A stretch of DNA of 64,000 nucleotides from Pecten maximus. Lineage: Eukaryota. Below the pieces are notes generated by a model that searched no databases, had not been told where the DNA came from, and saw only the letters and a list, made by a program, of their open reading frames with translations. The position numbers and the translations under genes were made by a program. Position 1 is the first letter of the stretch. Each line of letters starts with the position of its first letter. The stretch spans positions 26,412,001 through 26,476,000 of the forward strand of contig NC_047025.1 of the NCBI RefSeq assembly GCF_902652985.1. The letters are read 5' to 3'. Shown piece after piece: positions 5,114 through 52,080 of this stretch.

Positions 5114-7020
5114 GTGAGCGGTATGTCATATATATGTGTGTTATGTTTAGGCAGATGCGCAATATGTCCATATACATATATGTGTATGTTCCTGTATTTT
5201 TTTTTATACAGATGTGCGGTATACCCGCCATACGTATGTGTGTTATGTTTATACAGATGTGCGGTATGTCATCAATCGTATTTGTGTTATGTTTATACAG
5301 ATGTGCGGTATGTCATCAATCGTATTTGTGTTATGTTTATACAGATGTGCGGTATGTCATCAATCCGTATTTGTGTTATGTTTATAAAGATGTGCGGTAT
5401 GTCATCAATCGTATTTGTGTTATGTTTATACAGATGTGCGGTATGTCATCAATCCGTATTTGTGTTATGTTTATACAGATGTGCGGTATGTCATCAATCC
5501 GTATTTGTGTTATGTTTATACAGATGTGCGGTATGTCATCAATCGTATTTGTGTTATGTTTATACAGATGTGCGGTATGTCATCAATCGTATTTGTGTTA
5601 TGTTGGTTTTTTTAAAGATGTGCGGTATGTCATCAATCCGTATTTGTGTTATGTTTATACAGATGTGCGGTATGTCATCAATCGTATTTGTGTTATGTTT
5701 ATACAGATGTGCGGTATGTCATCAATCGTATTTGTGTTATGTTTTTTTTAAAGATGTGCGGTATGTCATCAATCGTATTTGTGTTATGTTTATACAGATG
5801 TGCGGTATGTCATCAATCGTATTTGTGTTATGTTTTTAAAGATGTGCGGTATGTCATCAATCGTATTTGTGTTATGTTTATACAGATGTGCGGTATTTCA
5901 TCAATCCGTATTTGTGTTATGTTTATACAGATGTGCGGTATGTCATCAATCGTATTTGTGTTATGTTGGTTTTTTTTAAAGATGTGCGGTATGTCATAAT
6001 TCCGTATTTGTGTTATGTTTTTAAAGATGTGCGGTATGTCATCAATCCGTATTTGTGTTATGTTTTTTTTAAAGATGTGCGGTATGTCATAATTCCGTAT
6101 TTGTGTTATGTTTTTTAAAGATGTGCGGTATTTCATCAATCCGTATTTGTGTTATGTTTTTTAAAGATGTGCGGTATGTCATCAATCCGTATTTGTGTTA
6201 TGTTTTTAAAGATGTGCAGTATGTCATCAATCCGTATTTGTGTTATGTTTTTTTTTAAAGATGTGCGGTATGTCATAATTCCGTATTTGTGTTATGTTTT
6301 TTAAAGATGTGCGGTATTTCATCAATCCGTATTTGTGTTATGTTTTTAAAGATGTGCGGTATGTCATCAATCCGTATTTGTGTTATGTTTTTAAAGATGT
6401 GGGGTATGTCATCAATCCGTATTTGTGTTATGTTTTTTAAAGATGTGCGGTATGTCATCAATCCGTATTTGTGTTATGGTTTTAAAGATGTGCGGTATGT
6501 CATCAATCCGTATTTGTGTTATGGTTTTAAAGATGTGCGTTATGTCCACCATGGTTTGTTTATAGAGTTGTGTGGTTTGTCCTCCATACGTATGTTTTTG
6601 CTTATACAGATGTGCGAAATTTCCTCCATGCCTACAAAGTATTTGTTTGCTTATACCAATGTGCGGTATGTCCACCATACATATGTTTTTTGCTTATACA
6701 GATGTGCGGTATTTCCTCCATGCGTATGTATGATATGTTTATAAAGATGTGCGGTATATCCACCATACGTATGTGTTTTGTTTATACAGACGTGCGGCAT
6801 GTCCACCATCCGTATGTGTGTTGTTTATAAAGATGTGCGGTATGTCCACCATCCGTATGTGTGTTATGTTTATAAAGATGTGCGGTATGTCCACCATCCG
6901 TATGTGTGTTGTTTATAAAGATGTGCGGTATGTCCACCATTCGTATGTGTTTTGCTTATACAGACGTGCGGCATGTCCACCATACGTATGTGTTTTGCTA
7001 ATACAGATGTACGGTATTGT
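5114..7020. repeat. 44-45-bp minisatellite (ATACAGATGTGCGGTATGTCATCAAT[C]CGTATTTGTGTTATGTTT)n, about 40 copies
   Basis: Tandem units read directly; homogeneous core and divergent edges. It starts ~60 bp after the hydantoinase stop and explains the repetitive ORFs called at 5114-7061. Confidence 0.95.
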
Positions 7021-15800: not shown

Positions 15801-16719
15801 TGATAGCATGTATTTTGGCTGCATCTAATTTGATGAATTAGATCCTGAATTAAATGGAGTTAATATCACGTAATTGAATAAAAACAAAAATAACGTTAAT
15901 TGGATGTGCTGAATTGCTTCTGTTGATCAAATAGTTTGGCTGTTTTTATAAAACTGCATTTCAAAAGCGTAAGGCACATATACTAAAAGTTTTGAGGTTG
16001 ATTTATGACGTTTTTAACCATGGAGTGTTGAGGTCAAGATGTACATCCAACGCAATACATACCTAGGGTCATTGCAAATACAATAAAACAATAACTAACA
16101 TTCCTTTGAATTCAACATTGAATGTCATGAAATTAATTATGAGGCTATCGCACCTGCCCATTTAGATTTCAATATTGCATTTGGTTTCTTCTCGTCACCT
16201 CCTCGGTACACTGAACTAGCATCTGTGATATTAGAGTCTTAGGGAATACGAAAACACTGTATGATGAACATATTTCAGTTTTACTGTATTCAATTGTATT
16301 GAAATGTTCTGATATTAAAGTTCATATTTCCACATCATACTGATATTAGTTGATTACTCTTTACCTACCTCGAGGGTTGAATATTTCCCTGTTTGGTCCC
16401 TAAAGCAGGTGTGATTGTTTTTCTCCTATCATAATGTTTTATTTACGCAGGGTCCTGTTGTTCAAATATCTAAAACAAATATTACAATACAACACTAAGT
16501 GGACATAATATGCCTTATAGGTGAGGTCAAGATATATAACACACTACGGCTTACCTTGACATCGCTAGTGTTTGAAAATACGATAATAGATCGATAGTTT
16601 GAAAGATGGCTGACGTGACAGCTACACCTGAACCGCCATACGTAGACGGATTTGTCAAAGACGGGCTTGAAAAAGTCAAAGACGTTTTCAGGTATTCCGG
16701 TTGTTTCAACAACAATGAC

Positions 16720-19700
16720 TTGTAGACAGGTATTACAGCTATTCATTCAGCCCTCTTGAAAGCTCACTCTGTAGACAAGTTTAACAGCTGTTCCTTCAGC
16801 CCTCATAATAACTCACTATGTAGACCAGTATTACAACTATTCCTTCAGTCCTCGTTATAACTCACTATGTAGACCAGTATTACAACTATTCTTCAGTCCT
16901 CGTAATAACTCACTATGTAGACCAGTATTACAACTATTCCATCAGTCCTCGTTATAACTCACTCTGTAGACCAGTATTACAACTATTCCTTCAGCCCTCG
17001 TAATAACTCACTATGTAGACCAGTATTACAACTATTCTTCAGTCCTCGTTATAACTCACCTTGTAGACCAGTATTACAACTATTCCTTCAGTCCTCGTTA
17101 TAACACACCTTGTAGACCAGTATTACAACTATTCCTTCAGTCCTCGTTATAACTCACTTTGTAGACCAGTATTACAACTATTCCTTCAGTCCTCGCTATA
17201 ACTCACTATGTAGACAAGTATTACAACTATTCCTTCAGTCCTCGTTATAACTCAGTCTGTAGACAAGTATTACAACTATTCCTTCAGTCCTCGTTATAAC
17301 ACCCCTTTGAGACAGATTACAACTATTCCTTCATCCTCTTTTATAAACCCTTGTAGACCATATTCCATTCCACCCTTAAAATCATTGTAGACAAGATTAC
17401 AACTATTCCTTCACCTCGTTAAAAACCAGGGGGGAGAAATATTACAACTATTCCCCCTCTTTAAAACTCCCCTTGTAGCCCATATTAAAAACTTTTTCCT
17501 TCACCCTCGAAATAACTCATTGTGACCATTTACACTATTCCAGCCCCTCGTTTTTAAATCCCCTTGGGACCATTTTACAACTTTTCCTTCAGCCTCTAAA
17601 AATCACCTTGAGCCCAAGTTTAAAAACTATTCCCCTTTCCCAGTCCTCTTATAATCACTGTGAAAAAGTTTAAAACTTTTCCCCGCCTCGTTAAAAACTC
17701 ACCTTGTAGACAGTATTACAACTACCTTCAGCTCGTAATTCATTGAGCCCAGATTCAACTATTTTTTATCCCGAATAACCCCCTTGGACCATATACAACT
17801 ATCCATCAGTCCTCGTTATAACTCACCTTGTAGACCAGTATTACAACTATTCCTTTAGTCCTCGTAATAACTCACCTTGTAGACCAGTATAACAACTATT
17901 CCATCAGTCCTCGTAATAACTCACTCTGTAGACAAGTATTACAACTATTCCTTCAGTCCTCGTAATAACTCACCTTGTAGACCAGTATTACAACTATTCC
18001 TTCAGTCCTCGTTATAACTCACCTTGTAGACCAGTATTACAACTATTCCTTCAGACCTCGTAATAACTCACCTTGTAGACCAGTATTACAACTATTCCTT
18101 CAGTCCTCGTTATAACACACCTTGTAGACAGGTATTACAACTATTCCTTCAGTCCTCGTTATAACTCAGTCTGTAGACAAGTATTACAACTATTCCTTCA
18201 GTCCTCGTTATAACACACCTTGTAGACCAGTATTACAACTATTCCTTCAGTCCTCGTAATAACTCGCCTTGTAGACCAGTATTACAGCTATTCCAGTCCT
18301 CGTTATAACTCAGTCTGTAGACAAGCATTACAACTATTCCTTCAGTCCTCGTTATAACACACCTTGTAGACCAGTATTACAACTATTCCTTCAGACCTCG
18401 TAATAACTCACCTTGTAGACAAGTATTACAACTATTCCTTCAGTCCTCGTTATAACTCAGTCTGTAGACAAGTATTACAACTATTCCAGTCCTCGTTATA
18501 TAACTCACCTTGTAGACCAGTATTACAACTATTCCTTCAGTCCTCGTAATAACTCACCTTGTAGACCAGTATTACAGCTATTCCACAGTCCTCGTTATAA
18601 CTCACCTTGTAGACCAGTTTTACAACTATTCCTTCAGACCTCGTAATAACTCACCTTGTAGACAAGTATTACAACTATTCCTTCAGTCCTCGTTATAACT
18701 CAGTCTGTAGACAAGTATTACAACTATTCCAGTCCTCGTTATATAACTCACCTTGTAGACCAGTATTACAACTATTCCTTCAGACCTCGTAATAACTCAC
18801 CTTGTAGACCAGTATTACAACTATTCCTTTAGTCCTCGTAATAACTCACCTTGTAGACCAGTATAACAACTATTCCATCAGTCCTCGTTATAACTCACCT
18901 TGTAGACCAGTATTACAACTATTCCTTTAGTCCTCGTAATAACTCACCTTGTAGACCAGTATAACAACTATTCCATCAGTCCTCGTAATAACTCACTCTG
19001 TAGACAAGTATTACAACTATTCCTTCAGTCCTCGTAATAACTCACCTTGTAGACCAGTATTACAACTATTCCTTCAGTCCTCGTTATAACTCACCTTGTA
19101 GACCAGTATTACAACTATTCCTTCAGACCTCGTAATAACTCACCTTGTAGACCAGTATTACAACTATTCCTTCAGTCCTCGTTATAACACACCTTGTAGA
19201 CCAGTATTACAACTATTCCTTCAGTCCTCGTTATAACACACCTTGTAGACCAGTATTACAACTATTCCTTCAGACCTCGTAATAACTCACTATGTAGACC
19301 AGTATTACAACTATTCCTTCAGTCCTCGTTATAACTCAGTCTGTAGACAAGTATTACAACTATTCCTTCAGTCCTCGTTATAACACACCTTGTAGACAAG
19401 TATTACAACTATTCCTTCAGACCTCGTAATAACTCACCTTGTAGACCAGTATTACAACTATTCCTTCAGACCTCGTAATAACTCACCTTGTAGACAAGTA
19501 TTACAACTATTCCTTCAGTCCTCGTTATAACTCAGTCTGTAGACCAGTATTACAACTATTCCAGTCCTCGTTATATAACTCACCTTGTAGACCAGTATTA
19601 CAACTATTCCTTCAGATCTCGTAATAACTCACCTTGTAGACCAGTATTACAACTATTCCTTTAGTCCTCGTAATAACTCACCTTGTAGACCAGTATAACA

Positions 19701-22700
19701 ACTATTCCATCAGTCCTCGTTATAACTCACCTTGTAGACCAGTATTACAACTATTCCTTCAGACCTCGTAATAACTCACCTTGTAGACCAGTATAACAAC
19801 TATTCCATCAGTCCTCGTAATAACTCACTCTGTAGACAAGTATTACAACTATTCCTTCAGTCCTCGTAATAACTCACCTTGTAGACCAGTATTACAACTA
19901 TTCCTTCAGTCCTCGTTATAACTCACCTTGTAGACCAGTATTACAACTATTCCTTCAGACCTCGTAATAACTCACCTTGTAGACCAGTATTACAACTATT
20001 CCTTCAGTCCTCGTTATAACACACCTTGTAGACAGGTATTACAACTATCCTTCAGCCTTCGTAATAACTCAGCTTGTAGACCAGTATTACAACTATTCCT
20101 TCAGTCCTCGTTATAACACACCTTGTAGACCAGTATTACAACTATTCCTTCAGACCTCGTAATAACTCACTATGTAGACCAGTATTACAACTATTCCTTC
20201 AGTCCTCGTTATAACTCAGTCTGTAGACAAGTATTACAACTATTCCTTCAGTCCTCGTTATAACACACCTTGTAGACAAGTATTACAACTATTCCTTCAG
20301 TCCTTGTTATAACTCAGTCTGTAGACAAGTATTACAACTATTCCTTTAGTCCTCGTTATAACTCACCTTGTAGACCAGTATTACAACTATTCCTTCAGTC
20401 CTCGTTATAACTCAGTCTGTAGACCAGTATTACAACTATTCCTTCAGTCCTCGTTATAACACACCTTGTAGACCAGTATTACAACTATTCTTCAGTCCTC
20501 GTTATAACTCACCTTGTAGACCAGTATTACAACTATTCTTCAGTCCTCGTTATAACTCACCTTGTAGACCAGTATTACAACTATTCCTTCAGTCCTCGTT
20601 ATAACTCAGTCTGTAGACAAGCATTACAACTATTCCTTCAGTCCTCGTTATAACTCACCTTGTAGACCAGTATTACAACTATTCCTTCAGACCTCGTAAT
20701 AACTCACCTTGTAGACAAGTATTACAACTATTCCTTCAGTCCTCGTTATAACTCAGTCTGTAGACCAGTATTACAACTATTCCAGTCCTCGTTATATAAC
20801 TCACCTTGTAGACCAGTATTACAACTATTCCTTCAGATCTCGTAATAACTCACCTTGTAGACCAGTATTACAACTATTCCTTTAGTCCTCGTAATAACTC
20901 ACCTTGTAGACCAGTATAACAACTATTCCATCAGTCCTCGTTATAACTCACCTTGTAGACCAGTATTACAACTATTCCTTCAGACCTCGTAATAACTCAC
21001 CTTGTAGACCAGTATAACAACTATTCCATCAGTCCTCGTAATAACTCACTCTGTAGACAAGTATTACAACTATTCCTTCAGTCCTCGTAATAACTCACCT
21101 TGTAGACCAGTATTACAACTATTCCTTCAGTCCTCGTTATAACTCACCTTGTAGACCAGTATTACAACTATTCCTTCAGACCTCGTAATAACTCACCTTG
21201 TAGACCAGTATTACAACTATTCCTTCAGTCCTCGTAATAACTCACCTTGTAGACCAGTATTACAACTATTCCTTCAGTCCTCGTTATAACTCACCTTGTA
21301 GACCAGTATTACAACTATTCCTTCAGACCTCGTAATAACTCACCTTGTAGACCAGTATTACAACTATTCCTTCAGTCCTCGTAATAACTCACTATGTAGA
21401 CCAGTATTACAACTATCCTTCAGCCTTCGTAATAACTCAGTCTGTAGACAAGTATTACAACTATTCCTTCAGTCCTCGTTATAACACACCTTGTAGACAA
21501 GTATTACAACTATTCCTTCAGTCCTTGTTATAACTCAGTCTGTAGACAAGTATTACAACTATTCCTTTAGTCCTCGTTATAACTCACCTTGTAGACCAGT
21601 ATTACAACTATTCCTTCAGTCCTCGTTATAACTCAGTCTGTAGACCAGTATTACAACTATTCCTTCAGTCCTCGTTATAACACACCTTGTAGACCAGTAT
21701 TACAACTATTCTTCAGTCCTCGTTATAACTCACCTTGTAGACCAGTATTACAACTATTCTTCAGTCCTCGTTATAACTCACCCTGTAGACAAGTATTACA
21801 ACTATTCCAGTCCTCGTAATAACTCACCTTGTAGACAAGCATTACAACTATTCCACAGTCCTCGTTATAACACACCTTGTAGACCAGTATTACAACTATT
21901 CCTTCAGTCCTCGTTATAACTCACCTTGTAGACAAGCATTACAACTATTCCAGTCCTCGTAATAACTCACCTTGTAGACAAGCATTACAACTATTCCACA
22001 GTCCTCGTTATAACACACCTTGTAGACCAGTATTACAACTATCCTTCAGTCCTCGTTATAACTCAGTCTGTAGACAAGTATTACAACTATTCCTTCAGTC
22101 CTCGTTATAACACACCTTGTAGACAAGTATTACAACTATTCCTTCAGTCCTCGTTATAACTCAGTCTGTAGACCAGTATTACAACTATTCCTTCAGTCCT
22201 CGTTATAACTCACCTTGTAGACAAGCATTACAACTATTCCAGTCCTCGTAATAACTCACCTTGTAGACAAGCATTACAACTATTCCACAGTCCTTGTTAT
22301 AACACACCTTGTAGACCAGTATTACAACTATCCTTCAGTCCTCGTTATAACTCAGTCTGTAGACAAGTATTACAACTATTCCTTCAGTCCTCGTTATAAT
22401 ACACCTTGTAGACAAGTATTACAACTATTCCATCAGTCCTCGTTATAACTCACCTTGTAGACCAGTATTACAACTATTCCAGTCCTCGTTATAACTCACC
22501 TTGTAGACCAGTATTACAACTATTCCTTCAGTCCTCGTTATAACACACCTTGTAGACAAGCATTACAACTATTCCTTCAGTCCTCGTTATAACACACCTT
22601 GTAGACAAGTATTACAGCTATTCCTTCAGTCCTCGTTATAACTCACCTTGTAGACCAGTATTACAACTATTCCTTCAGTCCTCGTTATAACTCACCTTGT

Positions 22701-23255
22701 AGACCAGTATTACAACTATTCCTTCAGTCCTCGTTATAACTCAGTCTGTAGACCAGTATTACAACTATTCCTTCAGTCCTCGTTATAACTCAGTCTGTAG
22801 ACAAGTATTACAACTATTCCTTCAGTCCTCGTTATAACTCAGTCTGTAGACCAGTATTACAACTATTCCTTCAGTCCTCGTTATAACTCACCTTGTAGAC
22901 CAGTATTACAACTATTCCACAGTCATCGTTATAACTCACCTTACAGCTATTCCATCAGCCCTCGTAATAACTCACTCTGTAGACCAGTATTACATATATT
23001 CCACAGTCCTCGTAATAACTCACTCTGTAGACCAGTATTACATATATTCCAGTCCTCGTTATAACTCACTCTGTAGACAAGCATTACAACTATTCCACAG
23101 TCCTCGTAATAACTCACTCTGTAGACCAGTATTACATATATTCCAGTCCTCGTTATAACTCACTCTGTAGACAGGTATTACAACTATTCCACAGTCCTCG
23201 TTATAACTCACCTTACAGCTATTCCATCAGCCCTCGTAATAACTCACTCTGTAGA
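16720..23255 (+). repeat. 49-bp satellite (~130 copies; TGTAGACCAGTATTACAACTATTCCTTCAGTCCTCGTTATAACTCACCT) derived from the lactamase exon 2 end and donor
   Basis: The unit aligns to the copy B exon 2/intron 2 junction (CCTTCAGCCCTCGTTATAGCACACCTTGTGGACAG|GTATTA). Edge units keep GACAGGTATTA; most internal units have GACCAGTA or GACAAGTA. Confidence 0.95.
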
Positions 23256-24646
23256 AAAATACATATGTACTAGTATTACATTTATTTTATCCTTAAATGG
23301 ATTGAGTCAATTCTTTTTCAATCTTATTTTACAGATTGAAATGAAAAAAAGATTTAGTATTTATCAGAAATCTATCAACAATTTGTTACTAAACAGAGTT
23401 TGTTTTACGTACAGATGGTTAACAATGCATATCTATGGGGCACGGGACTGCTGCCTCCCTCACTTAATTTCATAGTATGGGGGAGTTCATAACGGCATGA
23501 GGCTGTTGTCAGAGAAGGCTATCCAAAGACAACTGGTGCCCAAGTCCTACGTCAAAGATGCAGTGTATGTAGGGTTGATGTTTAATCTTGGAGCCATGGT
23601 ATTGGCGTCAGTGCACGAAGGTCAACCAGTAAGTAATCGCCATTTCAATTCGCCGGAAAGATACATAGTTTTATCTGTTTTAGTTATACAAGCGATGATC
23701 ATCAATTTAGGATGAAATAATTAATGTTCTTTTTTCCTTAGACTGATATGTATATTTTAAAAAGTATAATGAAAATTACTAAATTAGAAAACATATTATG
23801 ATTTATACAATTGAACGAGTGGTTGCAGTGACTGACACAATGGTAAACTAGCTTAACATTTTCTACCCTCTATATCTTAGACATTTAGATGAAAACTATT
23901 TTGTTATATATACTTAAAAATCATGAGATTTATTAATCAATGATATAAACGTGTCTTAAAATCAAGAAATTGATTGATATGCAATTTATTTGACGTATTT
24001 TCTTCGCCATGACTAATCTTCCGACACTACACTGCCAAACTACAAATGAGAGAAAATGTAGTGTAGGGCACATAAAACATCAAGTCTCAATACAGAAAAT
24101 ACTTACATTAAAAACTCAGTTTTCAACAGAATCCTCTTTTCTATTTTAAGTGATTGTGCTATTTTGATATAGAAATTTGTCCGTACCTTTTATATAAATT
24201 CTTTTTGTTAGTCAATGTAAACATTAGATAGTTTTGCTCGGCGACATCTTCCTTAGATAGTGTCTATAGATAGGTAGGAAGGTCACTATGAGCAACATTA
24301 TCTTTGGCTCTCTGATAGTTTTTCAAATTGAAATAATAGACGAATGCCAATGTTCACACGCCGGGTTCAAAACGCATACAATATTCAATATCGATACAAG
24401 GTTGTCATACACAGAAAGCTTACCATTCAGCCCCTTTCACGTGTTCGGTTGTGTGGTTGATTTTACTTTAAAATGGTATTGATTACTTACCTTTACCAGG
24501 TATATATGCAGTTGGAATGATGTTTCTTAAGAAATTAGATATTTCATTCTTGGCTACTGCCGTTTAAGTTCAGCATATTAATAATAGCTCTATATGTATA
24601 TATACATAAGAAAATATGTTCGTTTACATCGTTCATGTACCGTAGC

Positions 24647-25150
24647 AAGAGTACAAAGTACATTATTGAGGTTGATACTGACCAGTGTTATTCTCAAGAG
24701 TACAAAGTACATTATTGAGGTTGATACTGACCAGTGTTATTCTCAAGAGTACAAAGTACATTATTGAGGTTGATACTGACCAGTGTTATTCTCCAGAGTA
24801 CAAAGTACATTATTGAGGTTGATACTGACCAGTGTTATTCTCAAGAGTACAAAGTACATTATTGAGGTTGATACTGACCAGTGTTATTCTCCAGAGTACA
24901 AAGTACATTATTGTACATTATTGAGGTTGACACTGACCAGTGTTATTCTCAAGAGTACAAAGTACATTATTGAGGTTGATACTGACCAGTGTTATTCTCA
25001 AGAGTACAAAGTACATTATTGAGGTTGATACTGACCAGTGTTATTCTCAAGAGTACAAAGTACATTATTGAGGTTGATACTGACCAGTGTTATTCTCAAG
25101 AGTACAAAGTACATTATTGAGGTTGATACTGACCAGTGTTATTCTCAAGA
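24647..25150. repeat. 49-bp minisatellite (~10 copies; AAGAGTACAAAGTACATTATTGAGGTTGATACTGACCAGTGTTATTCTC) in the last intron of copy A
   Basis: Near-perfect tandem units, period 49 (24647 to 24696). Confidence 0.93.
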
Positions 25151-25879
25151 CAGCTGCGCATGAGTAGAAAGAGTAAATATGAACATGCATGTTGACTAAA
25201 TCATTTGTTTTCAAATATTGAACATCTTGTCTATTCAATTATTTTTTTCAAATTATTATTTTCATTAACTTCATTATCGTTATTTTTATTTATTTATTTA
25301 TTTGTTAACCTGTGTTTTCCTTTGGACATGACAGATTCGGAGGTCAAACGGCCATTGCAGATCCTACCCACAAGATCTCCTTTGCACAGACGACCAACTA
25401 TTTAAACCCGGACATACATGTACAGGAGGAATCTCGCTGGAATGATCTCAGTAACGCTCTGTACGAATGTGTCTATAAGATAAAGAACATTTCCGCCAAA
25501 CGGACAATCTATGAATCCTCTCACCAAATGAAAGCAGCACTGGACTCACAAAATGCATATTGTTGCCCTTCTATGCGAATGTCTAGCCATAAATACTTCA
25601 TTAAATCAAATGTTTTTTTGTAAGAAGAAATAAAGTTACACATCAGCAAAAAATGTCTTTCTTGTCATTGTTTTATCTTTGTTTCACCTTTGTTCGTTTT
25701 TGTTTGTTTTATTTTATTTTTATTATTATATTTTTTCCCTTTTTCTCATATCACATATATGACATACAAACGATTTTTAATGTATGCATGGTGGCCATAA
25801 TTGTCATGATACATGGAAGGAGTCCGAATTTCGATTTTGGGGCACTTTTGGAAAATACCATTCTATATAAAGATATCAC

Positions 25880-30371: not shown

Positions 30372-33300
30372 ATGGCAGACGTGACAGCGACACCGGAACC
30401 GCCCTACGTAGATGGATTTGTCAAAGACGGGTTTGAAAAAGTCAGAGATGTATTCAGGTAAACAAAAAAGTAATTAGCCGTTTCGATCATGTATAAATAA
30501 TGTTTGTTATACTGAGGGGAAACATTTGATGTATCAAAATCAAACATGATTATACCATTGCAACAAATAATGCATAATGCATAAAAATCACGACCACATG
30601 ACTACAGAACTACCGGGCCAGTCAAATGCCATCCTTATTGATAATTCTCAAATGTCGGCGAAGCCCGGTATTTTTAATTACAACGTAATGTTTAGAAATA
30701 ACTATTGTACCAAGTCCTACAGATTTCCCGTTCCATTTATTAACCTGTCCTTCACGATAGTGGTCTGATCTTGTAAACTCGTATCAACATGCTTTACTGT
30801 ATGTACAGATTTATATGGTACTATGTGCAAAGGTCGATTATAGTGTAAATGGTATAACATAAGAAAACTTTAAAGTACAAATATAATGTCAACGCATTTA
30901 AAACATCCTGCATTCCATCAGGCCCATGCATATTAAGTCAGCGTACACCAGGATATGCTTGAATCTCGTCAAAATTGATAATTTACATATACGTGCGCTT
31001 GCATGCATACCTTCAGACATGTAAAGAAAATATGCACTGCACTATTAAAAAATATACCGGACAAGTCAAACATAGGTTCTTACCAACTACTGATATTTAA
31101 ACATTATTTTTCATGTTAGTACATTGTATTTCTATTACTTTTGTTATTTTTTGTAATTAAATCTTTACACAAAATAAAATTATCAACATTCTTCAAAATG
31201 TGTGACGTTTACAGCGATCGTATCAGTCACAACTGATGATCTATATTGTCTGACACGTGATCAGTATTACTCGGGTCCAGAGATAAACAGGTGACCTATA
31301 TATATATAAATAGTTAGCTGTGATCGTCCGATAAGTACTAACTATCACATACAGTAATAATATCACACGGTGATTTTCAGTTTCTGAGTAATCCTAACTG
31401 CAAATATACGTTTACAGAAAACTACATAGTGTATATAAAAGAACGGAATATTATCCTACAATAAGTGAGCGCTCCCTACCTGGGAAAATCACGGTATTAA
31501 ACTAATCACTTCATAGTTCAATACTAATTGACCGAGTGAGCACTCACTTCTACTGAGTGCTCACTTTTACCGAGCGCTCACTTCACAGAGTACACATTAA
31601 TTGTTACCGAACACTCAAAATACCGCGCACTAACTGAGCATTCGATCACTAGCATATAGCTAAAAAAACTGTGCTCTCAGACTTCGACTCCTGTGATGTA
31701 CCAATCACATAGACTTACTTAGAGTCCATAAGGAGAAATGAAGTCTTACTCAGGCACGTCTACTTCCGTACTCAACAGTAACAAAGTACAATACAATATT
31801 GGAGACATGGAAACCTTTATTTAGACACATTTATACCTTTATAGTCTTATTGTCTGACCTTACCGTGTCTTCTTAAGAAGTAGCCGCTAGCTAGCTTCCA
31901 ACGACTCCTTTTATACACTCCGAATTTGGAATCTTGTGCCCCCTATTGTAAATCCATGGTCTTTAGAACGTTTCTTAAACTCCTATATACTTGCAACATA
32001 CAAGCTTTTTGACAACGAGTGGAAGACTGGTAGTCCAGAACGACAGGGGTAACACAACCGTGGTTTAGGCTTCTACAAATGTAGCCAGTAAATTCGAACA
32101 CAAGTGCTTGATAATATAATTCAATAATATTCCATAATCTTTATGTTGTTTTTTAATCACTTTTTAGATATATCTTATAATTGTTTTAATGTAATTTAAA
32201 TTAATTAAGCAATTGATATGAATGAGATGTTTTGCTACAGCAAATACTGGATTAACCAAATGTTAGATAGTGTATATGAGCCATCAATCATTGAAATATC
32301 CATATCTGTTTTAGTTTAAAGATTTTTTTATTTGATATAATGAAAGAAGATAAATACATTTCCTTTAAATTTCTAATCAATTTGTTTTATGGCACATAAT
32401 TAATGTATTGTTGTATTTTATTGCAAATCATCAAGTCATCTATTATTGTACACAATTTTCAGAGCCAATTTGGAGAATGGTTCCGACAAAGGTGGCTCTG
32501 TAGCTGTCTACTATGAAGGGGAGTTGGTGGTAAACTTGTGGGGAGGCTGGGTTGACATGACATCTGTGTGGAAATGGAGAGAGGATACCATGTCGTGTTT
32601 CTTTTCCTCTACAAAGAGTCCTTCAGCCCTCGTTATAGCACACCTTGTGGACAGGTATTATGATTATATCAGACGATAGCAAAACAATTGTTTATAAACA
32701 AATCTCATTTCCGAATACCCTTCTGCTCTCTTATCTCATATTGTTTTCATTTTCTGTGTGTCCATTTCTCCTTTGTTAACATATAGTCATTGGTCTAAAA
32801 TACTGAGTCAGAATTAAAGTTTCGTTTACCAATCCGTAACCTGTTGTTTTTGTAGAGGTCTTCTAGACTACAAGGAAAAGATATCAAAATATTGGCCAGA
32901 GTTTGCACAGAACGGCAAAGGTGATATAACTCTGGAAACTTACATCACGAATCGGGTAGGATTATGGTATTCTGTTGGAATACAGGCAAATGCAATGACA
33001 AGTAAATTATGTAGAACAATATAATAAATATAACTCATATGCTAATCATAAGACATGATACGTCCAAATAAGAAACAATTCGTAATCGTATATCATAATG
33101 GAGACAATAAGTCTGTGTAAAGATATATATATTATTTTTAGTTTTAATCTAATCATAATGTGTTTTCGATATCAAGTATTGATTTGTTGAAGGCTGGTCT
33201 AAGCGGGAATGAAGAGCCGATCTCCATGAGACTAATGCTGGAAGACCCACAAAAGTTTGGAGAAATTTTAGCTAAACAGAAGCCACTATGGGAACCAGGT

Positions 33301-36300
33301 ATACACGTTACTCATACAGTGACATATATACTTGTTAAAACTGTAATGAGTTTTATTTCTCTAGGTCAAAAAAAACGCATTTGGTGTATAGGAAATTATA
33401 TTCCGTTTTTATAGATTCTACGAAAATTCATCTTTTAGCTTCAAATGTTTGGTAAAACAACGTAACTTGAACCATAGAAAACACTTTTACATATCATAAG
33501 ACAACATTCACATACACATTTACAGTTCTTCAACCCTAAAAAACACCTTTACAGACACTCAACCCAAAAACACACACATATATATTTATATATCCACAGA
33601 AAAAACACATTTACAGGTATTCCAACAAAAAACAAAAAACAAAAATCATTCATATACAATTTGTTAATTTATTCAAAGAAATAACACCTTTGCATTTTTT
33701 TCTCGTTTCCCTTCTCACCAGGAACGAAACATGGCTACCACCCCTTAACATTCGCCCTATATTTGGACCAAATTGTGAAGAGAGTAGATCCAGAGGGACG
33801 TAGTCTCTCCCAATACTTCCATGAGGAGATGGCCAAACCGTTCGGTGAGATTTGTGACTTTTTCTAATAATCTTCGATTATTGTACATATTTGTGAACAC
33901 TCAAATAGTAGCGTATTTTTGAAATAAAAGAGGATTGATTGGCGTACCGAAATAATCGCCATAAATATACATAGACATAGAATCATCGAATTATAAATTT
34001 ACTTTTACCGGGGAAAAAAGTGTGCAAATAAGATTATCTAAACGTGCGTGTACATTATCAAAACTCTAATGAGAACGATGTTTGTGAATATACTTCCGCT
34101 TGTCACAACCAGTTATGGATTCTCAATACTTAATGATATTGATTGATACATTTATATTAAGAATGGCATCGATGATTATCATTGAATAGGAGAAGATAAG
34201 TTTCACTGCCGTTTGTTTACGCTAAGCATACAAAAATGATGCTACTATTGAAGCACTGAACTGCTTTCATATGGAAGTTATGGGCTGATGAATGCCATCT
34301 GGACAAAGGCAAATTTAATGATAATGAATGAACAAATTATTATCGTCAAGACGGAAAAGCTTTTTCAACAGCCATCTTTCGTTATCGCCGACGTGACAAT
34401 TATGACGTCACTATAATAATGACGTCATAATAAAGATTTGGAAGTTATGGACTCATAACTTCCAAGTAAGCTTGGTAAAGTTATATAGTGGGGCTGCAGT
34501 GTAAATGTAAATATAATTAAATAACATAACGGTCTGTTGTATCCCAACTGTCTGGTGTTTGTTCGAATCAGTGAGGCATCCGCTAGGCTCGTCTGCCTTT
34601 CTGATAACTATGACACATAAAAGCTTTCCTTTGCTACTGCTGTCGTTTATTAACATATACCAAACATACAGAAATTTGTTATTTTGATACAGGAGGAGAA
34701 ACATACATAATTCATATTTCATAGTTCAGTTTACTTATTTCATTCGATGGGTGTAAGCGTCATTTGATTGTTGCCAATGGATGAACAGTATTAAAAGCAT
34801 TGTATTGTGTATGTTCAAGTTCTTCAATGTTGATATTACTATGTCAGATTATACTTTTGTTTATTGATTCAATGTCAACATAGGATGTAATATATTTTAT
34901 ATAGTAGATAACAGATAAAAACTGATATAGTGTCATTTTATACATAACGGTATGTGTATGTTGGCTCGCCATTTCTCCTCTGGAGCACGTTCCACTTCAG
35001 TAAACAAACAAATATTATTTTTGTAGAAAATATATTCCTATCTAGAACTACTGAAACTTCAATATATACGTGTTCCAGATATAGAATTTTATATTGGACT
35101 TCCTAAGGAGTTGTACTACAGAGCTCCCCCGGTATCAATAAAGGACGATGTAGATATGGAGAAAGTCATGAGTTTGATGCAGGGGGACGATCCAGACTTA
35201 ACAAAGCTTGTCAATGGTACCTTCACAGACTTTGGGGTAAGTATTTTGTGTATTTCTATTTATTTTACAAAGATTTTATTGAATTAAATTCAATGGATAT
35301 GGGGCAACAGGCAAACAAGGAGGAGAAAACGTTCACTGTTTTTAGTTAGGGCCGAGAGTATTAAAGCTGTAAATGAAGGCAATTTCAAGCCGAGATAGCT
35401 TATTGTAACGAGAGGATCAGCATTGACCAAGTTTGGAAACGGTTGAGTATCGCCCTGGATTAATTTTGTGTAATACAGTGTACGTAAATAAATAGAGGAC
35501 ATTGAATGGTTTGCCGTAGAATACAGGTATTTCAGGAGTATAGCAGACTATCGTTATAATCTGTCATATGAGTGGATCTTAACGCGCGCGGAATAATTGC
35601 GTTCAAGGGGGACAACTCTTACAATGTCGTCTGCTTGTGTTTGCATCTGACAGTCCTCATCGTCGATGTCGGGTTTAAAATGTTGGACTTAACTATGAAA
35701 ATACATACATTCTGAAGATAAATATATAGCATACCAGCAATAAACCGATAGGGCTACACGGTTAAACGATGAGATATTTTATCTGAGCGGAAATGTGACT
35801 CCGTTACTGTTCCGTAAAATGATCATATCTGTCGAGGTGCAAATCAAATTATATGTAAAATTGGAAACCTCATTTCATCGTTAGTTTTTTCAAAGTATTG
35901 TTGATAGAACTTCTTTTTCTCGAATGTTGACAATTTGATCACGGCCACGTCAAAAGTCGGCCAGGTTACGGCAATTTTTATCGGCGAATTATTCATTCGT
36001 TCATCACTTAACCATAAAAGGAATGAAGTTTGTGTGCAAACTTAGTTTGCCAAAATTGCGTATTTTTTGTAAAAACGTCAAATGAATAAATTTAAAAAAA
36101 AAATGAAGAAAATGGATGGCTGAGGGACACTTTTGCTAGAAATTTGGTAGTGATATGAGAGAAAACGTAAGGGATATGTGTATGTAGGATAGGGATATTC
36201 CACCCGAGAGGTCACAAAATGTGGTGCCGAGGGTTTTGCCACATTTTGTGATCGATAGGGTGGAATAGCCCTATCCTACATACACACATAATGAAATAGT

Positions 36301-37444
36301 CTTATAAACATATAACAGTGATTATATGATTTATATCAAGTTATAAACGATTTTTTCTTGTTTTGTACTTACAGATGATTAACAATCCATATATAAGAGA
36401 AATTCCGAATGGATCAGCCATGGGGCACGGGACGGCTGCCTCCCTCGCTAAATTCCATGGTATCCTAGCTAATGGGGGAGTTCATAACGGCAAGAGACTG
36501 TTGTCAGAGGAGGCTATTCAAAGACAACTGGTTCCCAAGTCCTGTGGAAAAGATGCAGTGTATGGTATAGAGTTTATGTTTAGTCTTGGAACCATGGTGT
36601 TTGCGTCAGTGGACGATGGTCAACCAGTAAGTAAATTCCATTCAATCCGCCGGGAAAATATTTTCATCGATGTTGGATGAATTTATCATGTTCTTTTTTG
36701 TCCAAAGATTGCTTTGTAAACATAATATAATGAAAAATTAACAAGAGTAAAAACATCAATCAGGTTTATACATGTACAATTGAATGAGGGCTTTGATATT
36801 ATGGTCAACTTCATATTTTACACAAAGAAAGATGAACAGTGTATATATCGGTATTAAATGAAAACACTGTGGTCATATTTATTTGAAAGACAGTAAGTTA
36901 ATTAATCAATCATAAAATACATAGGAAAAAACAATCTTGGCTAGTTGATATCTTCCTTAATCAGGCGTGTTTAACTGGCAATATGAATTATACAGTGCTT
37001 AGATATTGTTTAAATTGAGGTAGGAAAAGCTGTCTGTTTTGGCGTAGTTGAAAGGATGACAAGCGAAAAGCCATGTAGAGACTCCGAGTTCAAACTCAAT
37101 AAACAAATGTCACACACAAAACAATTCTAATTAAACAACATGCTTAAGATAAAACATATTCCCCTACTTCAATATCGTTATTGTTTTATTTTTCTAAGCC
37201 TGTGCATTCATTTGGACACGGCGGATTCGGAGGACAAATGGCCATTGCAGATCCTACCCACAAGATCGGCTTTGCATACACAACCAATTATTTGAACCCG
37301 GACATAAAGGAGGAATCTCGCTGGAATGATCTCAGTAACGCTCTGTACGAATGTGTCTATAAGATAAAGAACATTTCCGCCAAAAGGACACTCTGTGAAT
37401 CCTACGACCAATTGAAAGCAGCACAGGACTCACAAAAACAATAA
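30372..37444 (+). CDS. Beta-lactamase domain-containing protein (LACT-2-like serine hydrolase / family VIII esterase-like), copy B, 420 aa
   Basis: Exons 30372-30457, 32463-32654, 32856-32955, 33193-33298, 33722-33844, 35079-35236, 36375-36626, 37199-37444; all GT-AG, phase-consistent, 1263 nt. Motifs: catalytic SxxK (FSSTK), YWPEFAQNGK, PLWEPGTKHGYH and SFGHGGFGG. Confidence 0.92.
36176..36289. mobile_element. Palindromic MITE-like / foldback element (~115 bp hairpin)
   Basis: ATGTGTATGTAGGATAGGGATATTCCACCC..TCACAAAATGTGG pairs with CCACATTTTGTGA..GGGTGGAATAGCCCTATCCTACATACAC; arms ~50 bp. Confidence 0.75.
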
Positions 37445-39820: not shown

Positions 39821-40000
39821 TGTAGAACGTTTTAGTTTAATGTACAAGTTGGTAGATTCAATATTTGGTAGACAAAATCACGGTCTCCAACGTCGCCGAT
39901 AATAAAGCGTAAGTAGCAGACTTATAAGCTATGCTTTCATGTTTCAAAATGTTCATGAAGATACATACATTCAAATTGAAAAATACAAGATACAAAATAT

Positions 40001-46715: not shown

Positions 46716-49700
46716 ATGACTGACGTTACACCACAAACGCCCTACATAGACGGATTCGTCAAAGATGGTTTTGAGAGAGTCAGAGACGCGTTCAGGTATG
46801 TAGATATTAAAGCTTTAACATTTCCGACAAAGAGTAATTATGATCAGTTTAAGATAAGAATACACACAGCTAGGATTCGATGTGTCGATTACCTTACCTA
46901 CCGAGGACACCAAATCACTGACGTTTCACCAGAGCCGGATTCGTCAACGACGGTTTTGGGGAAGTCAGTTACGGGTATATTAATTTTATGGAGGATTAAT
47001 ATAAATATTTGTGCAATCAAGATAAAATGCGTTTAGCTTGGTTCAGCGTAACTTATCAAATCGATTGTTTTAACGCTGTTCTGTATGAATTAGTAATACC
47101 ATATATATCTATCAAACTCGAAAGTCTTGAAAATAAGCCGTACGTTTTACTAAGTCTTATTTCTTATTTAAAAGTTGTGAGCTATTTAATCATTGAACTA
47201 TTGAATTTAGTTCCATCAGTGAATTAATGCTTACAGAAAAAGTTGTTTGAGTTTAGGTGGGATTTCCTCACCCTGGAACGTCACCTACATTAAGGCAACT
47301 CTATTTTAAAAAAAAAGCTTATTTAATCTTCAAAGTAAGAGTATCTTTATAAACAGACGAAAGTTTTTAATGATATTCGTAGTTAATTTTATTTAAGATG
47401 TATATAGGGTGCATCTTGAAAGGTCCGGAAATGGTTATATATTATACTCTCCATTTTTTCGGACCAGACAGTTGATCAATTATGACGTCACCAAATCATA
47501 ATGCGATGTCATCGACCACCAGAAAATTAATATAAAATACATAATACATAAACGAGAATAAATAATGATATTCTGTGCCTTTATGTATTAAACAAAAACA
47601 TATCTTGTTGATAAGTGTTCTGTATATAACCGTCCAATCCATTTTAAATATCAAAATTTTGAACACAATCATCTCCTGTGTGATGAACAGTACGATTTAT
47701 TGACCTATACGTCCAATCTCAGGATGGGTCTGTATATAAATCTTCGCTGTGGTTATCTATACCTTCTCAGTATGAAGCGATTACATCATTGCCACTTAAC
47801 CACACGGTAAACATCCGGGGGCATATTTCAATATAGGTACATGTTTGTCCGTGTTAATCTTGGGAAACATAGATCTACCGTTATATAACTTGCTATAAGA
47901 CATTTAGATGACAATGTCTAGTGACACAAATACAACGTAACAGTCGTCTGAATAAGTTATTCATTACCCATACCTATACACGGATGTCGTCCACACACGA
48001 ACATACATATGTGTAGCTCTCGTGGCTAATATAACATAAAAGCCTTCAACCATTTAACTCGAGCATTTGATGCATGTCATTTAAATTGATACTATAATTA
48101 CAAAACATAAATGATAAATCTTTATATTGATATTGACTAATGCTAAATCTGAGCTAGTCAGATTCAGGACGGTGCCATACATCGGTATCGATAAAACAGC
48201 AGTTGAAGTTTCAACAAATGTCATTTGTAAAATAGTCTCTTTTACATTTTGATCGTTACAGGAGAACACTTTAAAAAAAATCTTCTTGGTTTAATTTCTA
48301 CTGATTGATAAGAGAAATGATTTTTCATTTTATACTGTTTTCAGATCCAATTTGGAGAATGGTTCTGATGAAGGAAGTTCGGTAGCTGTTTACTATGAAG
48401 GAGAGTTGGTGGTAAACTTGTGGGGAGGCTGGGTTGACAAGGAATCAGGATGGAAATGGAGAGAGGATACCATGCCGTGTTTCTACTCTTCTACAAAGAG
48501 TCCTTCAGCCATCGTAATAGCACACCTTGTTGACAGGTAGTATAGCTATTCCCTCAACCATCGTGATAGCACACCTTGTTGACAGGTATTATGGCTATTC
48601 CATCAACCATCGTTATAACACACCTTGTTGACATGTATTATAGCTATTCCATCAACCATCGTTATAACACAACTTGTTGACAGGTATTATGGCTATTCCC
48701 TCAACCGTCGTGATAGCACACCTTGTAAACAGGTATTATAGCTACTCTCTCAACCATCGTGATAGCACACCTTGTTGACAGGTAGTATAGCTATTCCCTC
48801 AACCATCGTTATAGCACACCTTGTTGACAGGTAGTATAGCTATTCCCTCAACCATCGTTATAACACACCTTGTTGACAGGTATTATAGCTATTCCATCAA
48901 CCATCGTTATAACACAACTTGTTGACAGGTATTATGGCTATTCCCTCAACCATCGTTACAGCACACCTTGTGGACAGGTATTATAGCTACTCCCTCAACC
49001 ATCGTGATAGCACACCTTGTTGACAGGTATTATAACTATTACGAAGGACAACAAGATTCGGTTTCAATAGCACAGTAAATAGATAATCAATAGTTTAGCA
49101 TTGACAAATCAGCCTCGCTTTTAAACACGTCTCCTCAACCCATTTGGCGCCAAAGCATGTAGTGAGCCTACCTTTTTATACCGACTTTATTTGTATTCAA
49201 TGCTGATTTTATAAGTTTTATATGAAATGGTCAATGGAAATGCATAATAGCATACCCATTACTGCTTCAAATTGCTACACTTAAATTAGGTTATGTAAAT
49301 GATATGTTATTTAATATTAACGATACTATCGATGTAATATTTTTTTCAAACTTAAAATATTTACAATATGGCCATTATCTTCTGTTTTGTTCAGAGGACT
49401 TCTAGACTATAAGGAAAAGATATCAAAATATTGGCCAGAATTTGCACAGAACGGCAAGGGGGACATAACTCTGGAAACTTACATCAGTAATAAGGTATGA
49501 TTCAGCTAAATTAAATTTTTACATAAAGTAACACATATAATCAAATACAATGTTTGTTGGAGACGATGTATTTGCAGGAGACCGTTTTTTATTGTTATCA
49601 TTTTCCCTGTATTTGACGAAGGCTGGACTAAGCGGAAATGAAGAACCATTTTCTTTACGGCTAATGCTGGATGATCCCCGGAAGTTTGAAGACATATTAG

Positions 49701-52080
49701 CTAAACAGAGGCCGCTATGGGAACCAGGTGTGTTAGCAGGTCAACACGGTCTTTGTTGGATTTTCCATTTATAATATAACAGTGTGGGTTATACTAGTAT
49801 TTATAATCTAAGTTCATTATGTTTATCGAATGCAAAGAAGAACAATTTAGTTTTTTTATCTTAGGTATTTTATGGTAGTATTTGTAAAAAGATATATGAA
49901 AAACAATATCCATTTGTTTCCGAGGAGTTCTTTTACATAAATAAATGATGCAATCTTAACACTAGAAGAACCAAAGCTTAATAACAGACAGAAACTAAGA
50001 GAGAGAAAAATAAGACATAAAACATTAATTAACTGATCAAGAAATCAATACTACTAAAAAGATACGTATGTATCGATGGAAATAGATACTTTATTTATTA
50101 TGAAGTTGTTACGATGTAATACTGATATTTTTCAACAGGAACAAAGCATGGCTACCACCCATTTACATTCGCTATGTATTTGGACCAAATTGTGAAGAGG
50201 GTGGATCCGAAGGGGCGTAGCCTCTCCCAATACTTCCATGAGGAGATGGCCAAACCGTTCGGTGAGGTTTCGACATTTCCAATTTAACATTCCATAATAC
50301 ATCAATACTATCAACTATCGCCAATTGCTAGCGATAAGAACTCCTTAAAACAACGTTATTTCATTGAGTCATCGGAATGTTGAATTGTGTTTTGTAGATA
50401 AGTTGTGAATGAAATATATAATAAAACATGAAGTTGATGTGTGCCGCTCTTGATCGGACATCGGGGTATTGACAGTTCATGTTAATGTAACGTTGGTGTT
50501 AATTACACTCTAATTATTATACCTTAGCAGAATACTTGATATGACCAAATGAAATACCTGGTAGGATCACCGTGCTGAAGAACGCTACATTATAAAATTG
50601 ACGATTCGATCTGCATACTTAATCATAACAAATGTATAAACATGTATTACAGATATCGAATTTTATATCGGGCTCCCCAAGGAGCTGTTCTACAGAGCTC
50701 CTCGTGTTGCCATGATAGGAAACGTAGATGAGGAAGAGATCAGAAAACGGATGCATGGAGGTGATCCGGAATTAACAAACATAGTCAATATGACTGTCAC
50801 AGATATGTCGGTAAGTATTCGGTGGACCTTAAAATATTGCAATGCTGGTCAAATACACTCGTACATCATAAATTTGGCCAGGTCAACCTGATATTGGGCA
50901 ATACTCGGCCTTGATGTGCCCAATTATGAGAATTACTGTAATCACAAGTTATAACTTTACATTTGATAAAAAAAACTTTTCAGAATCAATTTTAAAATCT
51001 AAAACGACCAAAATAAATTTTAAGCATAGCAAAGACATTCAGAAAAAAAATTATCATTTGATATACTTAAATACAATTTCATCCCTTGTCAACGCATTGT
51101 ACATGGTTAAATGTTCGTTTACATATGATTCACCCTCCAAAACTACCATAAAAGAAAAAAATGTTCAAAATATAATATTGTAATTTGGTTTTTATGTTGT
51201 GTATGGGCAGCATACTAATAACCCATATATAAGAGAGGTTCCATTGGGGTCAGCGTTGGGACACGGGACTGCTGCCTCCCTCGCTAAATTCCATGGTATC
51301 CTAGCTAATGGGGGAGTTCATAACGGCAAGAGACTGTTGTCAGAGGAGGCTATTCAAAGACAGCTGGTGCCCAAGTCCTGTGGAAAAGATGTGGTCTATG
51401 GCTTCGACTTCATGTTTAGTCTTGGTACCATGGTACTAGCTTCGGCGGACGATGATAAACTAGTAAGTATTGTCATTATCTGTAATAATTCAACCATGTT
51501 TATGTAGTCTCTTTTTCTCGGTGCAATGTTTTATCAACCATTTTATATTTTAAATGTTGTGACGGCTCTTAAGGCAATGCATTTTTTTCCTTAAATACAT
51601 GAAAATAACACTAGTGTCGGAGTGTTAAGTCCGCCTAACAGAAGTTAGTTATATCAGTTATCTATAATAATAATACTTTAAAACAAACTATTTTAAACTA
51701 AAGTAAATTTTGCTTTACCAACTGGGTGGGGACATGCACACGATGCACGTTTTTATAAGATAGGATGCGTAAATATTTACCAATGCGACACTCATTTAGT
51801 TCATTATTTGTTTAATAACCATTCCTTAACTTTTCAGCCTGTATTTTCCTTTGGACATGTCGGACATGGAGGACAAATGGCCATAGCAGATCCTACCCAC
51901 AAGATCGGCTTTGCATACGCGACCAATCATCTAAACCCAGATTTGACGGAAGATAATCGATGGAAGACCCTTTATGATGTCCTGTATGAATGTGTCTACA
52001 AGATAAAGAATATATCAGCCAAAAGGACACTCTTACAGAATTACAGCCAATTGAAAGAAGCTCAGAACTTGCAAACATAA
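46716..52080 (+). CDS. Beta-lactamase domain-containing protein (LACT-2-like), copy C, 417 aa
   Basis: Exons 46716-46795, 48345-48536, 49395-49494, 49622-49727, 50139-50261, 50653-50810, 51211-51462, 51838-52080; GT-AG, in frame, 1254 nt. Motifs YSSTK, HGYH, SFGHVGHGG. Confidence 0.92.
48501..49040 (+). repeat. 49-bp minisatellite (11 copies) spanning the exon 2 end and donor of copy C
   Basis: Unit GTATTATAGCTATTCCCTCAACCATCGTTATAGCACACCTTGTTGACAG; junctions run from 48536 to 49026 (10 x 49). Confidence 0.95.

What the first reader, a model, noticed from the sequence alone, without database searches (positions are those of the whole stretch)
16692..23414. Gene death associated with its own splice-junction repeat: a 6.5-kb satellite stands where exons 2-6 of copy A should be
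Seen: the array starts ~30 nt after the exon 1 donor and ends ~160 nt before exon 7. Its 49-bp unit is homologous to the exon 2 end and donor of the paralogues, yet the body of exon 2 (with catalytic SxxK) and exons 3-6 are absent. In this dead copy the CAG|GT consensus has mostly drifted to CCA|GT or CAA|GT, whereas arrays in intact C and D keep CAG|GT. The array is also 4-12 times longer. Inference: coding DNA was converted to satellite; expansion and flanking deletions either killed the gene or ran free after it died.
Basis: partly seen in the sequence, partly recalled or inferred. Interest (0 to 1): 0.7.

Follow-up and report, generated by a model that had tools for sequence, protein, structure and literature searches.

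The report
Splice-site repeat outlives its dead gene
In a scallop, a broken duplicate of an enzyme-family gene lacks the middle half of its coding sequence, and about 134 tandem copies of one exon's end and splice signal stand in its place; the repeat likely existed before the gene died and likely grew unchecked afterwards, so this is an unusual arrangement of a known kind of repeat, not a new mechanism.

Summary
The structure is real. Copy A of four tandem beta-lactamase-domain genes reads exon 1, 27 nt, about 134 x 49 bp, an intron 6 remnant, exon 7. Both junctions are bridged by contigs from three samples; the array interior is not spanned. The unit is 35 nt of exon 2 end plus 14 nt of intron. 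It is confined to this cluster.

It is a splice-donor-spanning minisatellite ('mirage'), known from amphioxus and human F7. Intact C and D carry the same family. The scan noted two others in this genome (unchecked).

A has evolved without constraint since splitting from B (29 replacement to 7 silent changes; B 2 to 9) and carries further frameshifts. The array shows recent kb-scale internal duplications, so its present size likely postdates the gene's death.

The CAG|GT to CCA|GT drift is real (4 of 122 units keep CAG|GT) but is not evidence of released selection. Decoy donors in C and D are not conserved beyond chance, and C and D are not independent.

'Coding DNA converted to satellite' holds for 35 nt only; the rest was deleted. 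I found no published mirage orphaned by flanking deletions in five searches. Modest interest.

The parts
16606..16691 (+). Copy A exon 1, open frame, donor GT at 16692
   Evidence: 89.5% identical to B exon 1; translation
16692..16718 (+). 27-nt spacer, presumed start of A intron 1; the 5' deletion junction lies at its end
   Evidence: No significant match to intron 1 or exon 2 of B, C, D; bridged by one contig each in X1, X4, X5
16719..16729 (+). Last 11 nt of exon 2 (or of a first unit), still followed by CAG|GT; likely the authentic donor
   Evidence: Sequence; unit list; old-type variants in edge units
16719..23255 (+). 49-bp donor-spanning minisatellite, about 134 units (35 nt exon 2 end + 14 nt intron 2)
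   Evidence: TRF; units; mean pairwise identity 0.915 and an 11-unit identical block repeated 25 units apart
17290..17800 (+). Noisy part of the array, likely unpolished assembly sequence
   Evidence: 85 gap positions and 25 homopolymer runs against 3-8 and 0 in three control stretches
23256..23293 (+). Degenerate terminal unit of the array
   Evidence: Local alignment to a late A unit, shuffle p 0.002
23294..23414 (+). Likely 3' end of intron 6; the 3' deletion junction lies in or just before it
   Evidence: Best match among 44 intron pieces is D intron 6 end under 2 of 3 scorings, not under the third; bridged in X4, X5 and marginally X2
23415..23628 (+). Copy A exon 7 with deletions of 25, 10 and 3 nt and a stop codon relative to B
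   Evidence: Alignment; codon table; laid contigs carry the same form
25309..25560 (+). Copy A exon 8; acceptor AG absent, FGHGG motif altered
   Evidence: 87.8% identical to B exon 8; translation
30372..37444 (+). Copy B, intact 420-aa model, sister of A, no exon 2 array
   Evidence: Model; tree support 87 for A+B; no significant second unit in intron 2, p 0.145
46716..52080 (+). Copy C, intact 417-aa model; donor array of 11 units at about 48502-49040
   Evidence: Model; identical to database protein P0001
53711..62688 (+). Copy D, intact 414-aa model; donor array of 33 units at about 55348-56926, with A-like relic units near its 3' end
   Evidence: Model; identical to P0002; unit 56818 groups with the A units
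60619..61623 (+). Second, unrelated donor-spanning array (31 bp, 32 copies) at D exon 6
   Evidence: TRF; sequence; exon 6 ends at 60633

Best explanation
Copy A is a broken duplicate of gene B in which a splice-donor-spanning minisatellite stands between two deletion junctions; the array likely predates the gene's death and likely reached its present size by neutral turnover afterwards. Steps: (1) a 49-bp duplication across the exon 2 donor arose once in the cluster and was amplified by slippage or unequal exchange (shared period and register shown; mechanism inferred). (2) In live genes the first donor is likely used and the copies are spliced out with the intron (inferred from F7 and amphioxus). 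(3) A split from B and was unconstrained for at least about half, probably nearly all, of the time since (pN/pS shown; timing inferred). (4) Two non-homologous junctions, from one or two events, removed intron 1 to the last 11 nt of exon 2 and everything from the array to the end of intron 6 (junctions shown; they may be the killing lesion). (5) Variant units CAA|GT and then CCA|GT swept the interior, sparing the edges (pattern shown; order and neutrality inferred). Whether A inherited the array with loss in B, or received it from a paralogue by conversion, is not resolved.
For: Junctions are bridged by single contigs: 5' in 3 of 3 DNA runs laid (X1, X4, X5); 3' fully in X4 (23144-23497) and X5, and with under 31 nt on the array side in X2.

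A-branch changes are 29 replacement and 7 silent, B-branch 2 and 9, 13 of 60 unpolarised, over 178 codons; Fisher p 0.0003. The interval for A's ratio is 0.49-3.1. A has further lesions in exons 7 and 8.

A, C and D share period and register, and D unit 56818 is closer to the A consensus (6 differences) than A is to the C/D consensus (11). The paralogue on C7 has the same boundary and no array. Identical blocks of 5-11 units recur inside A. Edge units keep older variants, as described for amphioxus mirages (PMC3087553). Long minisatellites are common here: 127 arrays in 520 kb sampled, 32 of at least 1 kb, 4 of at least 3 kb.
Against: No read or contig spans the array, and part of it looks unpolished. 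The identical internal blocks could be assembly artefacts. None of the 127 sampled arrays reached 6 kb, though 10-kb stretches truncate them. B, the sister of A, has no array, so simple inheritance needs a loss in B. Both deletions end in or at the array, which fits a causal role for it. pN/pS is simple site counting on 36 changes without transition correction, and conversion between paralogues can distort it. Sample S1 may be the source of the assembly, so it is not independent support.
Confidence: 0.7

Rival explanations
1. The array killed the gene: an expanded, unstable array in a working copy A caused breaks repaired by deletion on both sides, or decoy donors ruined splicing first.
For: Both junctions end in or at the array. 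Unequal crossing-over between arrays cannot give these junctions, so break repair at the array is plausible (inference). A's array is the longest in the cluster.
Against: A shows no period of purifying selection. C and D are intact with 11 and 33 units. F7 pseudo-donors stay silent (PMC1557585 abstract) and mirages did not disturb splicing in amphioxus. Any breakpoint inside a large array later looks like an edge, so the coincidence is weak evidence (inference).
Confidence: 0.14
2. A never carried the array as a working gene: during its birth as a copy of array-free B, one template-switch event replaced intron 1 to intron 6 with a piece copied from a D-like array, which then grew.
For: B has no array. 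A's 14-nt intron part differs from the C/D consensus at 2 positions and from B at 4. The nearest relative of A's units is a D relic unit. Exon 2 of C and D is 98% identical while their overall pS is 0.375, so ectopic exchange occurs at this spot.
Against: A's exon part keeps the ancestral Leu-type base shared with B and lacks the C/D sweep. Loss of the array in B by one deletion explains the same pattern. No junction microhomology could be established because A's original intron 1 is gone.
Confidence: 0.09
3. The interior is misassembled: exons 3-6 or other sequence lie between two separate arrays, or the array is far shorter.
For: Noisy stretch 17290-17800 and exact internal duplications; no contig spans the array.
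Against: No spare exon 2 or exon 5 in the assembly. No paralogue has this unit in intron 6. Unit types left and right of the noisy stretch are shared. The exon 2 body is absent from the bridged 5' junction in any case.
Confidence: 0.06
4. The 49-mer is a dispersed satellite family that inserted here and resembles the exon by chance.
For: The genome is rich in minisatellites.
Against: 29 of 35 positions match B's exon end in register. All 89 A-type and all 30 C/D-type matches lie in this cluster, controls 0. No match in 52 sampled 10-kb stretches; among the 8 targeted stretches only the C7 exon end matched.
Confidence: 0.01

Closest known systems
Amphioxus 'mirages' (Adh3, globins BflGb6/BflGb9, TnC, PGBD5): PMC3087553 (passages and section 16 read); PMC3902484 (one passage read)
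   Same: Tandem units span an exon-intron boundary; concerted evolution of the interior with edges excluded; many but not all units keep the splice signal; allelic length differences.
   Different: The cases described in these passages lie in working genes (3-6 units for BflGb6). Here there are about 134 units, and the host exon and four more exons are deleted.
Human F7 intron 7 37-bp VNTR: PMC1557585 (abstract and outline only)
   Same: First unit spans the exon-intron boundary and is followed by copies of the donor; this is the layout of C and D.
   Different: F7 is intact and the silence of its pseudo-donors was tested. Donor use was not tested here, and A has no exon to splice from.
Variable internal tandem repeats in human segmental-duplication paralogues: PMC2812944 (outline and first half of Results read)
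   Same: Minisatellite number differs between young paralogues, including at exon-intron boundaries, with a trend to expansion under relaxed constraint.
   Different: In the part read, arrays average 4 units of 30 bp and modify transcribed genes; no multi-kb array in a deleted pseudogene was described there.
Unprocessed (duplicated) pseudogene in a birth-and-death tandem cluster (general knowledge, recalled)
   Same: Introns retained, same orientation as neighbours, frameshifts, lost acceptor, pN/pS near 1.
   Different: The only surviving piece of the middle of the gene is its amplified splice junction.

Membership tests
Donor-spanning minisatellite ('mirage', F7-type VNTR) | Repeat unit spans an exon-intron boundary of the host gene | tested here: met
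   35 nt exon 2 end + 14 nt intron 2; first unit is the authentic exon end in C and D; 29 of 35 match to B for A
Donor-spanning minisatellite ('mirage', F7-type VNTR) | Head-to-tail units of minisatellite size, specific to the locus | tested here: met
   Period 49; 89 of 89 and 30 of 30 genome matches in the cluster
Donor-spanning minisatellite ('mirage', F7-type VNTR) | Interior homogenised, edge units excluded | tested here: met
   Edge units of A and D keep older variants; interior identity 0.91-0.92
Donor-spanning minisatellite ('mirage', F7-type VNTR) | Length varies between alleles | tested here: inconclusive
   One X5 contig lacks 94 nt at the 3' end of A's array; whole-array lengths cannot be read from contigs
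Donor-spanning minisatellite ('mirage', F7-type VNTR) | The first donor is used and splicing is normal | not tested
   Both read-laying runs went to A's junctions. Database proteins equal to first-donor models of C and D are annotations, not splicing data. Does not apply to A.
Unprocessed pseudogene | Disabling lesions with retained intron structure | tested here: met
   About 668 of 1263 coding nt missing; exon 7 frameshifts and exon 8 acceptor loss
Unprocessed pseudogene | Neutral evolution of remaining exons | tested here: met
   pN/pS 1.13 against 0.06 in B, p 0.0003; interval 0.49-3.1
Unprocessed pseudogene | No functional transcript | tested here: inconclusive
   No listed holder is on record as RNA; contigs cannot show silence
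Dispersed satellite DNA family | Arrays at several unlinked loci | tested here: not met
   No match outside the cluster at up to 2 mismatches in 33 nt; more diverged copies are not excluded
Serine beta-lactamase-domain proteins (PF00144), intact paralogues | Pfam match and SxxK motif | tested here: met
   B exon 2 scores 38.8 bits, cut-off 27; SSTK in B, C, D. Activity not tested.

The most novel reading that the evidence does not exclude
The donor array is an active mutator of its gene family. It seeds ectopic exchange that rewrites the coding exon it came from: C and D exon 2 are 98% identical despite old divergence, and a Leu-to-Ile change four residues after SxxK is shared by both exons and nearly all their array units, but absent from B and from all 6 relatives in other scallops. 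Its fragility also produced the two deletions that killed A. Donor arrays would then be a hidden driver of conversion and gene death in repeat-rich invertebrate genomes.
Probability: 0.2. Interest if true: 0.55.

Novelty: new variant of a known kind. Interest (0 to 1): 0.3.

Why it matters
As it stands, it is a clean natural comparison of one repeat in four states: absent (B), short and long in working genes (C, D), and orphaned in a dead gene (A). It shows that a multi-kb tandem array can be the sole trace of a lost exon. It also warns that a drifted splice signal in a homogenised array is one or two sweeps, not 100 independent losses. If the array drives conversion and deletion, it would link a common repeat type to gene-family turnover and be testable genome-wide; one cluster cannot show that.

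Tried and rejected
1. Donor motifs enriched in this genome's minisatellites. AG|GTR was in 28 of 127 units against 13.8 under base shuffles. After collapsing to 106 families and using dinucleotide-preserving shuffles it was 19 against 19.8, p 0.65. Rejected; four patterns were tried each time.

2. Selection keeps decoy donors in live genes. No depletion of variants in the donor window (5 of 27 in 37 C/D units; 4 of 22 in 91 A units; both p 1.0). The post-hoc chance that exactly positions -2 and -1 are both hit is 0.009-0.018, which leans the other way, but those positions were chosen after seeing the data.

3. A decayed second unit in B intron 2: p 0.145. Not supported.

4. A's tail being homologous to B intron 2: p 0.12-0.55; intron 6 fits better.

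5. Origin of the 27-nt spacer: no significant match, p 0.125-0.99.

6. Expression: no RNA holder listed. X6, a guessed RNA run, has exon 7 contigs with B-type and C-type loose ends, but contigs cannot rank genes or show that A is silent. Not used.

7. Copy number from contig depth: summed depth over the third unit was 2694-4873 against 19.5-74 on the flank. The tool states this is no copy number; not used.

8. A megablast search for internal duplications printed nothing; it was replaced by unit-run comparison.

9. An intact A orthologue: none among the 9 proteins found, in a search limited to 215 candidates; A groups with B. Most other tree nodes have support under 50.

10. Literature: five searches listed no donor array orphaned by deletions and no account of this cluster. 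Listings only; the library lacks most subscription papers; no supplements were read.

11. Scan notes near this place or with matching words: none.
Full report
SETTING. The window is G000:C11:26412001-26476000. Self-comparison shows four tandem plus-strand copies of one gene. B (30372-37444), C (46716-52080) and D (53711-62688) give 8-exon GT-AG models of 420, 417 and 414 residues with no internal stop. B exons 2, 5 and 8 match Pfam PF00144. Models C and D are identical to database proteins that the source names beta-lactamase domain-containing protein 2-like from Pecten maximus; relatives come from three other scallop genera. Three more distant paralogues lie on C7, C1 and C2.

OBSERVATION. 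Copy A has exon 1 (16606-16691), 27 nt, a 49-bp array of about 134 units, about 120-160 nt, then exons 7 and 8. In register, the unit is the last 35 nt of exon 2 and the first 14 nt of intron 2; the A consensus matches B's exon end at 29 of 35 positions. The SxxK codons lie just upstream of the repeated part and are absent from A. No exon 3-6 remnant lies in 7000-30300, and the assembly has no spare exon 2 or exon 5. About 668 of 1263 coding nt are missing. Of 122 resolved A units, 80 read CCA|GT, 29 CAA|GT, 9 CAA|GC and 4 CAG|GT; C has CAG|GT in 10 of 11 and D in 30 of 33.

IS IT REAL? Single contigs bridge exon 1 into the array in X1 (15850-16848), X4 (16589-16817) and X5 (15850-16835), from three samples and three studies, with no listed loose end at the junction (one loose end of 18 was not shown). 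The 3' side is bridged in X4 (23144-23497, no differences), in X5 (an allele lacking 94 nt at the array end) and marginally in X2. Sample S1 may be the source of the assembly. These are contigs of at most 1.5 kb here; none spans the array. The stretch 17290-17800 looks unpolished, so the junctions are secure and the exact length is not. The unit is not dispersed: 89 of 89 A-type and 30 of 30 C/D-type matches lie in the cluster.

HOW OLD IS THE DEATH? A is sister to B (support 87). Over 178 codons of exons 1, 7 and 8, polarised with C and D, A's branch has 29 replacement and 7 silent changes and B's has 2 and 9; 13 of 60 differences could not be assigned. pN/pS is 1.13 against 0.06, Fisher p 0.0003; the interval for A is 0.49-3.1. 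Silent divergence is similar on both branches (0.061 and 0.078). A also has 25-, 10- and 3-nt deletions in exon 7 and no exon 8 acceptor. Inference: A died at or soon after its birth.

HOW OLD IS THE ARRAY? A, C and D share period and register. D keeps relic units of the ancestral Leu type, one of which groups with the A units (a 49-nt tree, weak on its own). The C7 paralogue has the same boundary and no array. So the array family arose once in this cluster and exists in working genes. Its bulk in A looks young: an identical block of 11 units recurs 25 units away, with four further blocks of 5-6 units, unless these are assembly artefacts. Edge units keep CAG|GT and other older bases. B has no array and no significant remnant (p 0.145). 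Either B lost it or A received it from a paralogue. Exchange does occur here: C and D exon 2 are 98% identical against 72-94% for the other exons and an overall pS of 0.375, and their array consensuses are the same.

THE DONOR DRIFT. It is real but carries little weight. In a homogenised array each majority change is one sweep. A differs from the likely ancestral unit at 5-7 of 49 positions, two of them in the 9-nt donor window (p 0.22-0.38). C/D units show donor-window variants at the expected rate (5 of 27, p 1.0). The GT itself remains in 113 of 122 A units, and CCA|GT is the exon 7 donor of A, B and D when followed by AAGT. In F7, downstream pseudo-donors are silent because the first site is chosen (PMC1557585, abstract), so a live gene has little reason to keep them. 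One route to constraint remains possible: units exchange bases with the authentic exon end, so a donor-breaking sweep could be selected against in live genes. It is not shown here.

MECHANISM. Unequal crossing-over between arrays at the same intron would give whole hybrid genes, not these junctions (inference). Both junctions join array to non-homologous sequence, so they are likely non-homologous repair or template switches, in one or two events. The 5' break falls 11 nt before a donor that still reads CAG|GT. The 3' break joins the array end to what best matches intron 6. These deletions may be what killed A, but nothing shows that a long array caused them. A breakpoint anywhere inside an array later looks like an edge.

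BASE RATE. In 52 arbitrary 10-kb stretches there were 127 minisatellites covering about 89 kb of 520 kb; 32 reached 1 kb, 8 reached 2 kb, 4 reached 3 kb, none 6 kb. Within this gene family, donor-spanning arrays also occur at D exon 6 and, short and degenerate, at exon 3 of the C2 paralogue. Of 21 donors in B, C and D, 3 carry arrays, from 2 origins. Two scan notes report others in this genome (not checked by me). A genome-wide donor-motif enrichment did not survive a proper control.

COMPARISON AND NOVELTY. The array meets the tested features of amphioxus 'mirages' (PMC3087553, section 16; PMC3902484, passage) and of the F7 intron 7 VNTR. Variable boundary repeats among young paralogues are described in PMC2812944 (first half of Results). 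What differs is size and orphaned state. Five literature searches listed no such case, which is weak evidence of absence.

VERDICT. Observation confirmed; interpretation partly supported. New variant of a known kind. Best explanation 0.70; interest 0.30. The bolder reading, that the array drives conversion and gene death, has probability 0.2 and interest 0.55.

Noticed in passing
window 48338-49040 and 55184-55885: Exon 2 and the array of C and D are far more alike (exon 98%) than the rest of the genes; both exons and nearly all their units share a Leu-to-Ile change absent from B and from 6 of 6 relatives in other scallops, including D's likely orthologue P0008. Likely recent conversion centred on the array.
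   Followed up: partly
window 60619-61623: Independent 31-bp donor-spanning array (32 copies) at D exon 6.
   Followed up: partly
L032 2564-2763 (minus strand; paralogue on C2): Short degenerate repeat of about 57 bp starting at the exon 3 donor, about four donor-like copies.
   Followed up: partly
window 24646-25150: A second 49-bp array (10 copies) in A intron 7 with a different unit; no significant match elsewhere in the window or in 60 fetched stretches.
   Followed up: partly
window 39980-45507: Non-LTR retrotransposon between B and C with a 326-aa zinc-knuckle-like ORF and an uninterrupted 1270-aa endonuclease/reverse-transcriptase ORF; it looks recent.
   Followed up: no
window 1893-5054: Intronless 1053-aa ORF with hydantoinase/oxoprolinase and S-Me-THD N and C domains in one chain; origin not examined.
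   Followed up: no
window 16698: Runs X4, X5 and X6 read A instead of C here, which makes the first 8 nt of A intron 1 a near copy of the last 8 nt of exon 1; may be chance.
   Followed up: no
window 17290-17800: Error-rich stretch inside the array, likely unpolished assembly sequence.
   Followed up: partly
window 5203-7017 and 10036-10737: Two further minisatellites (45 bp x 40 and 70 bp x 10) upstream of the cluster.
   Followed up: no
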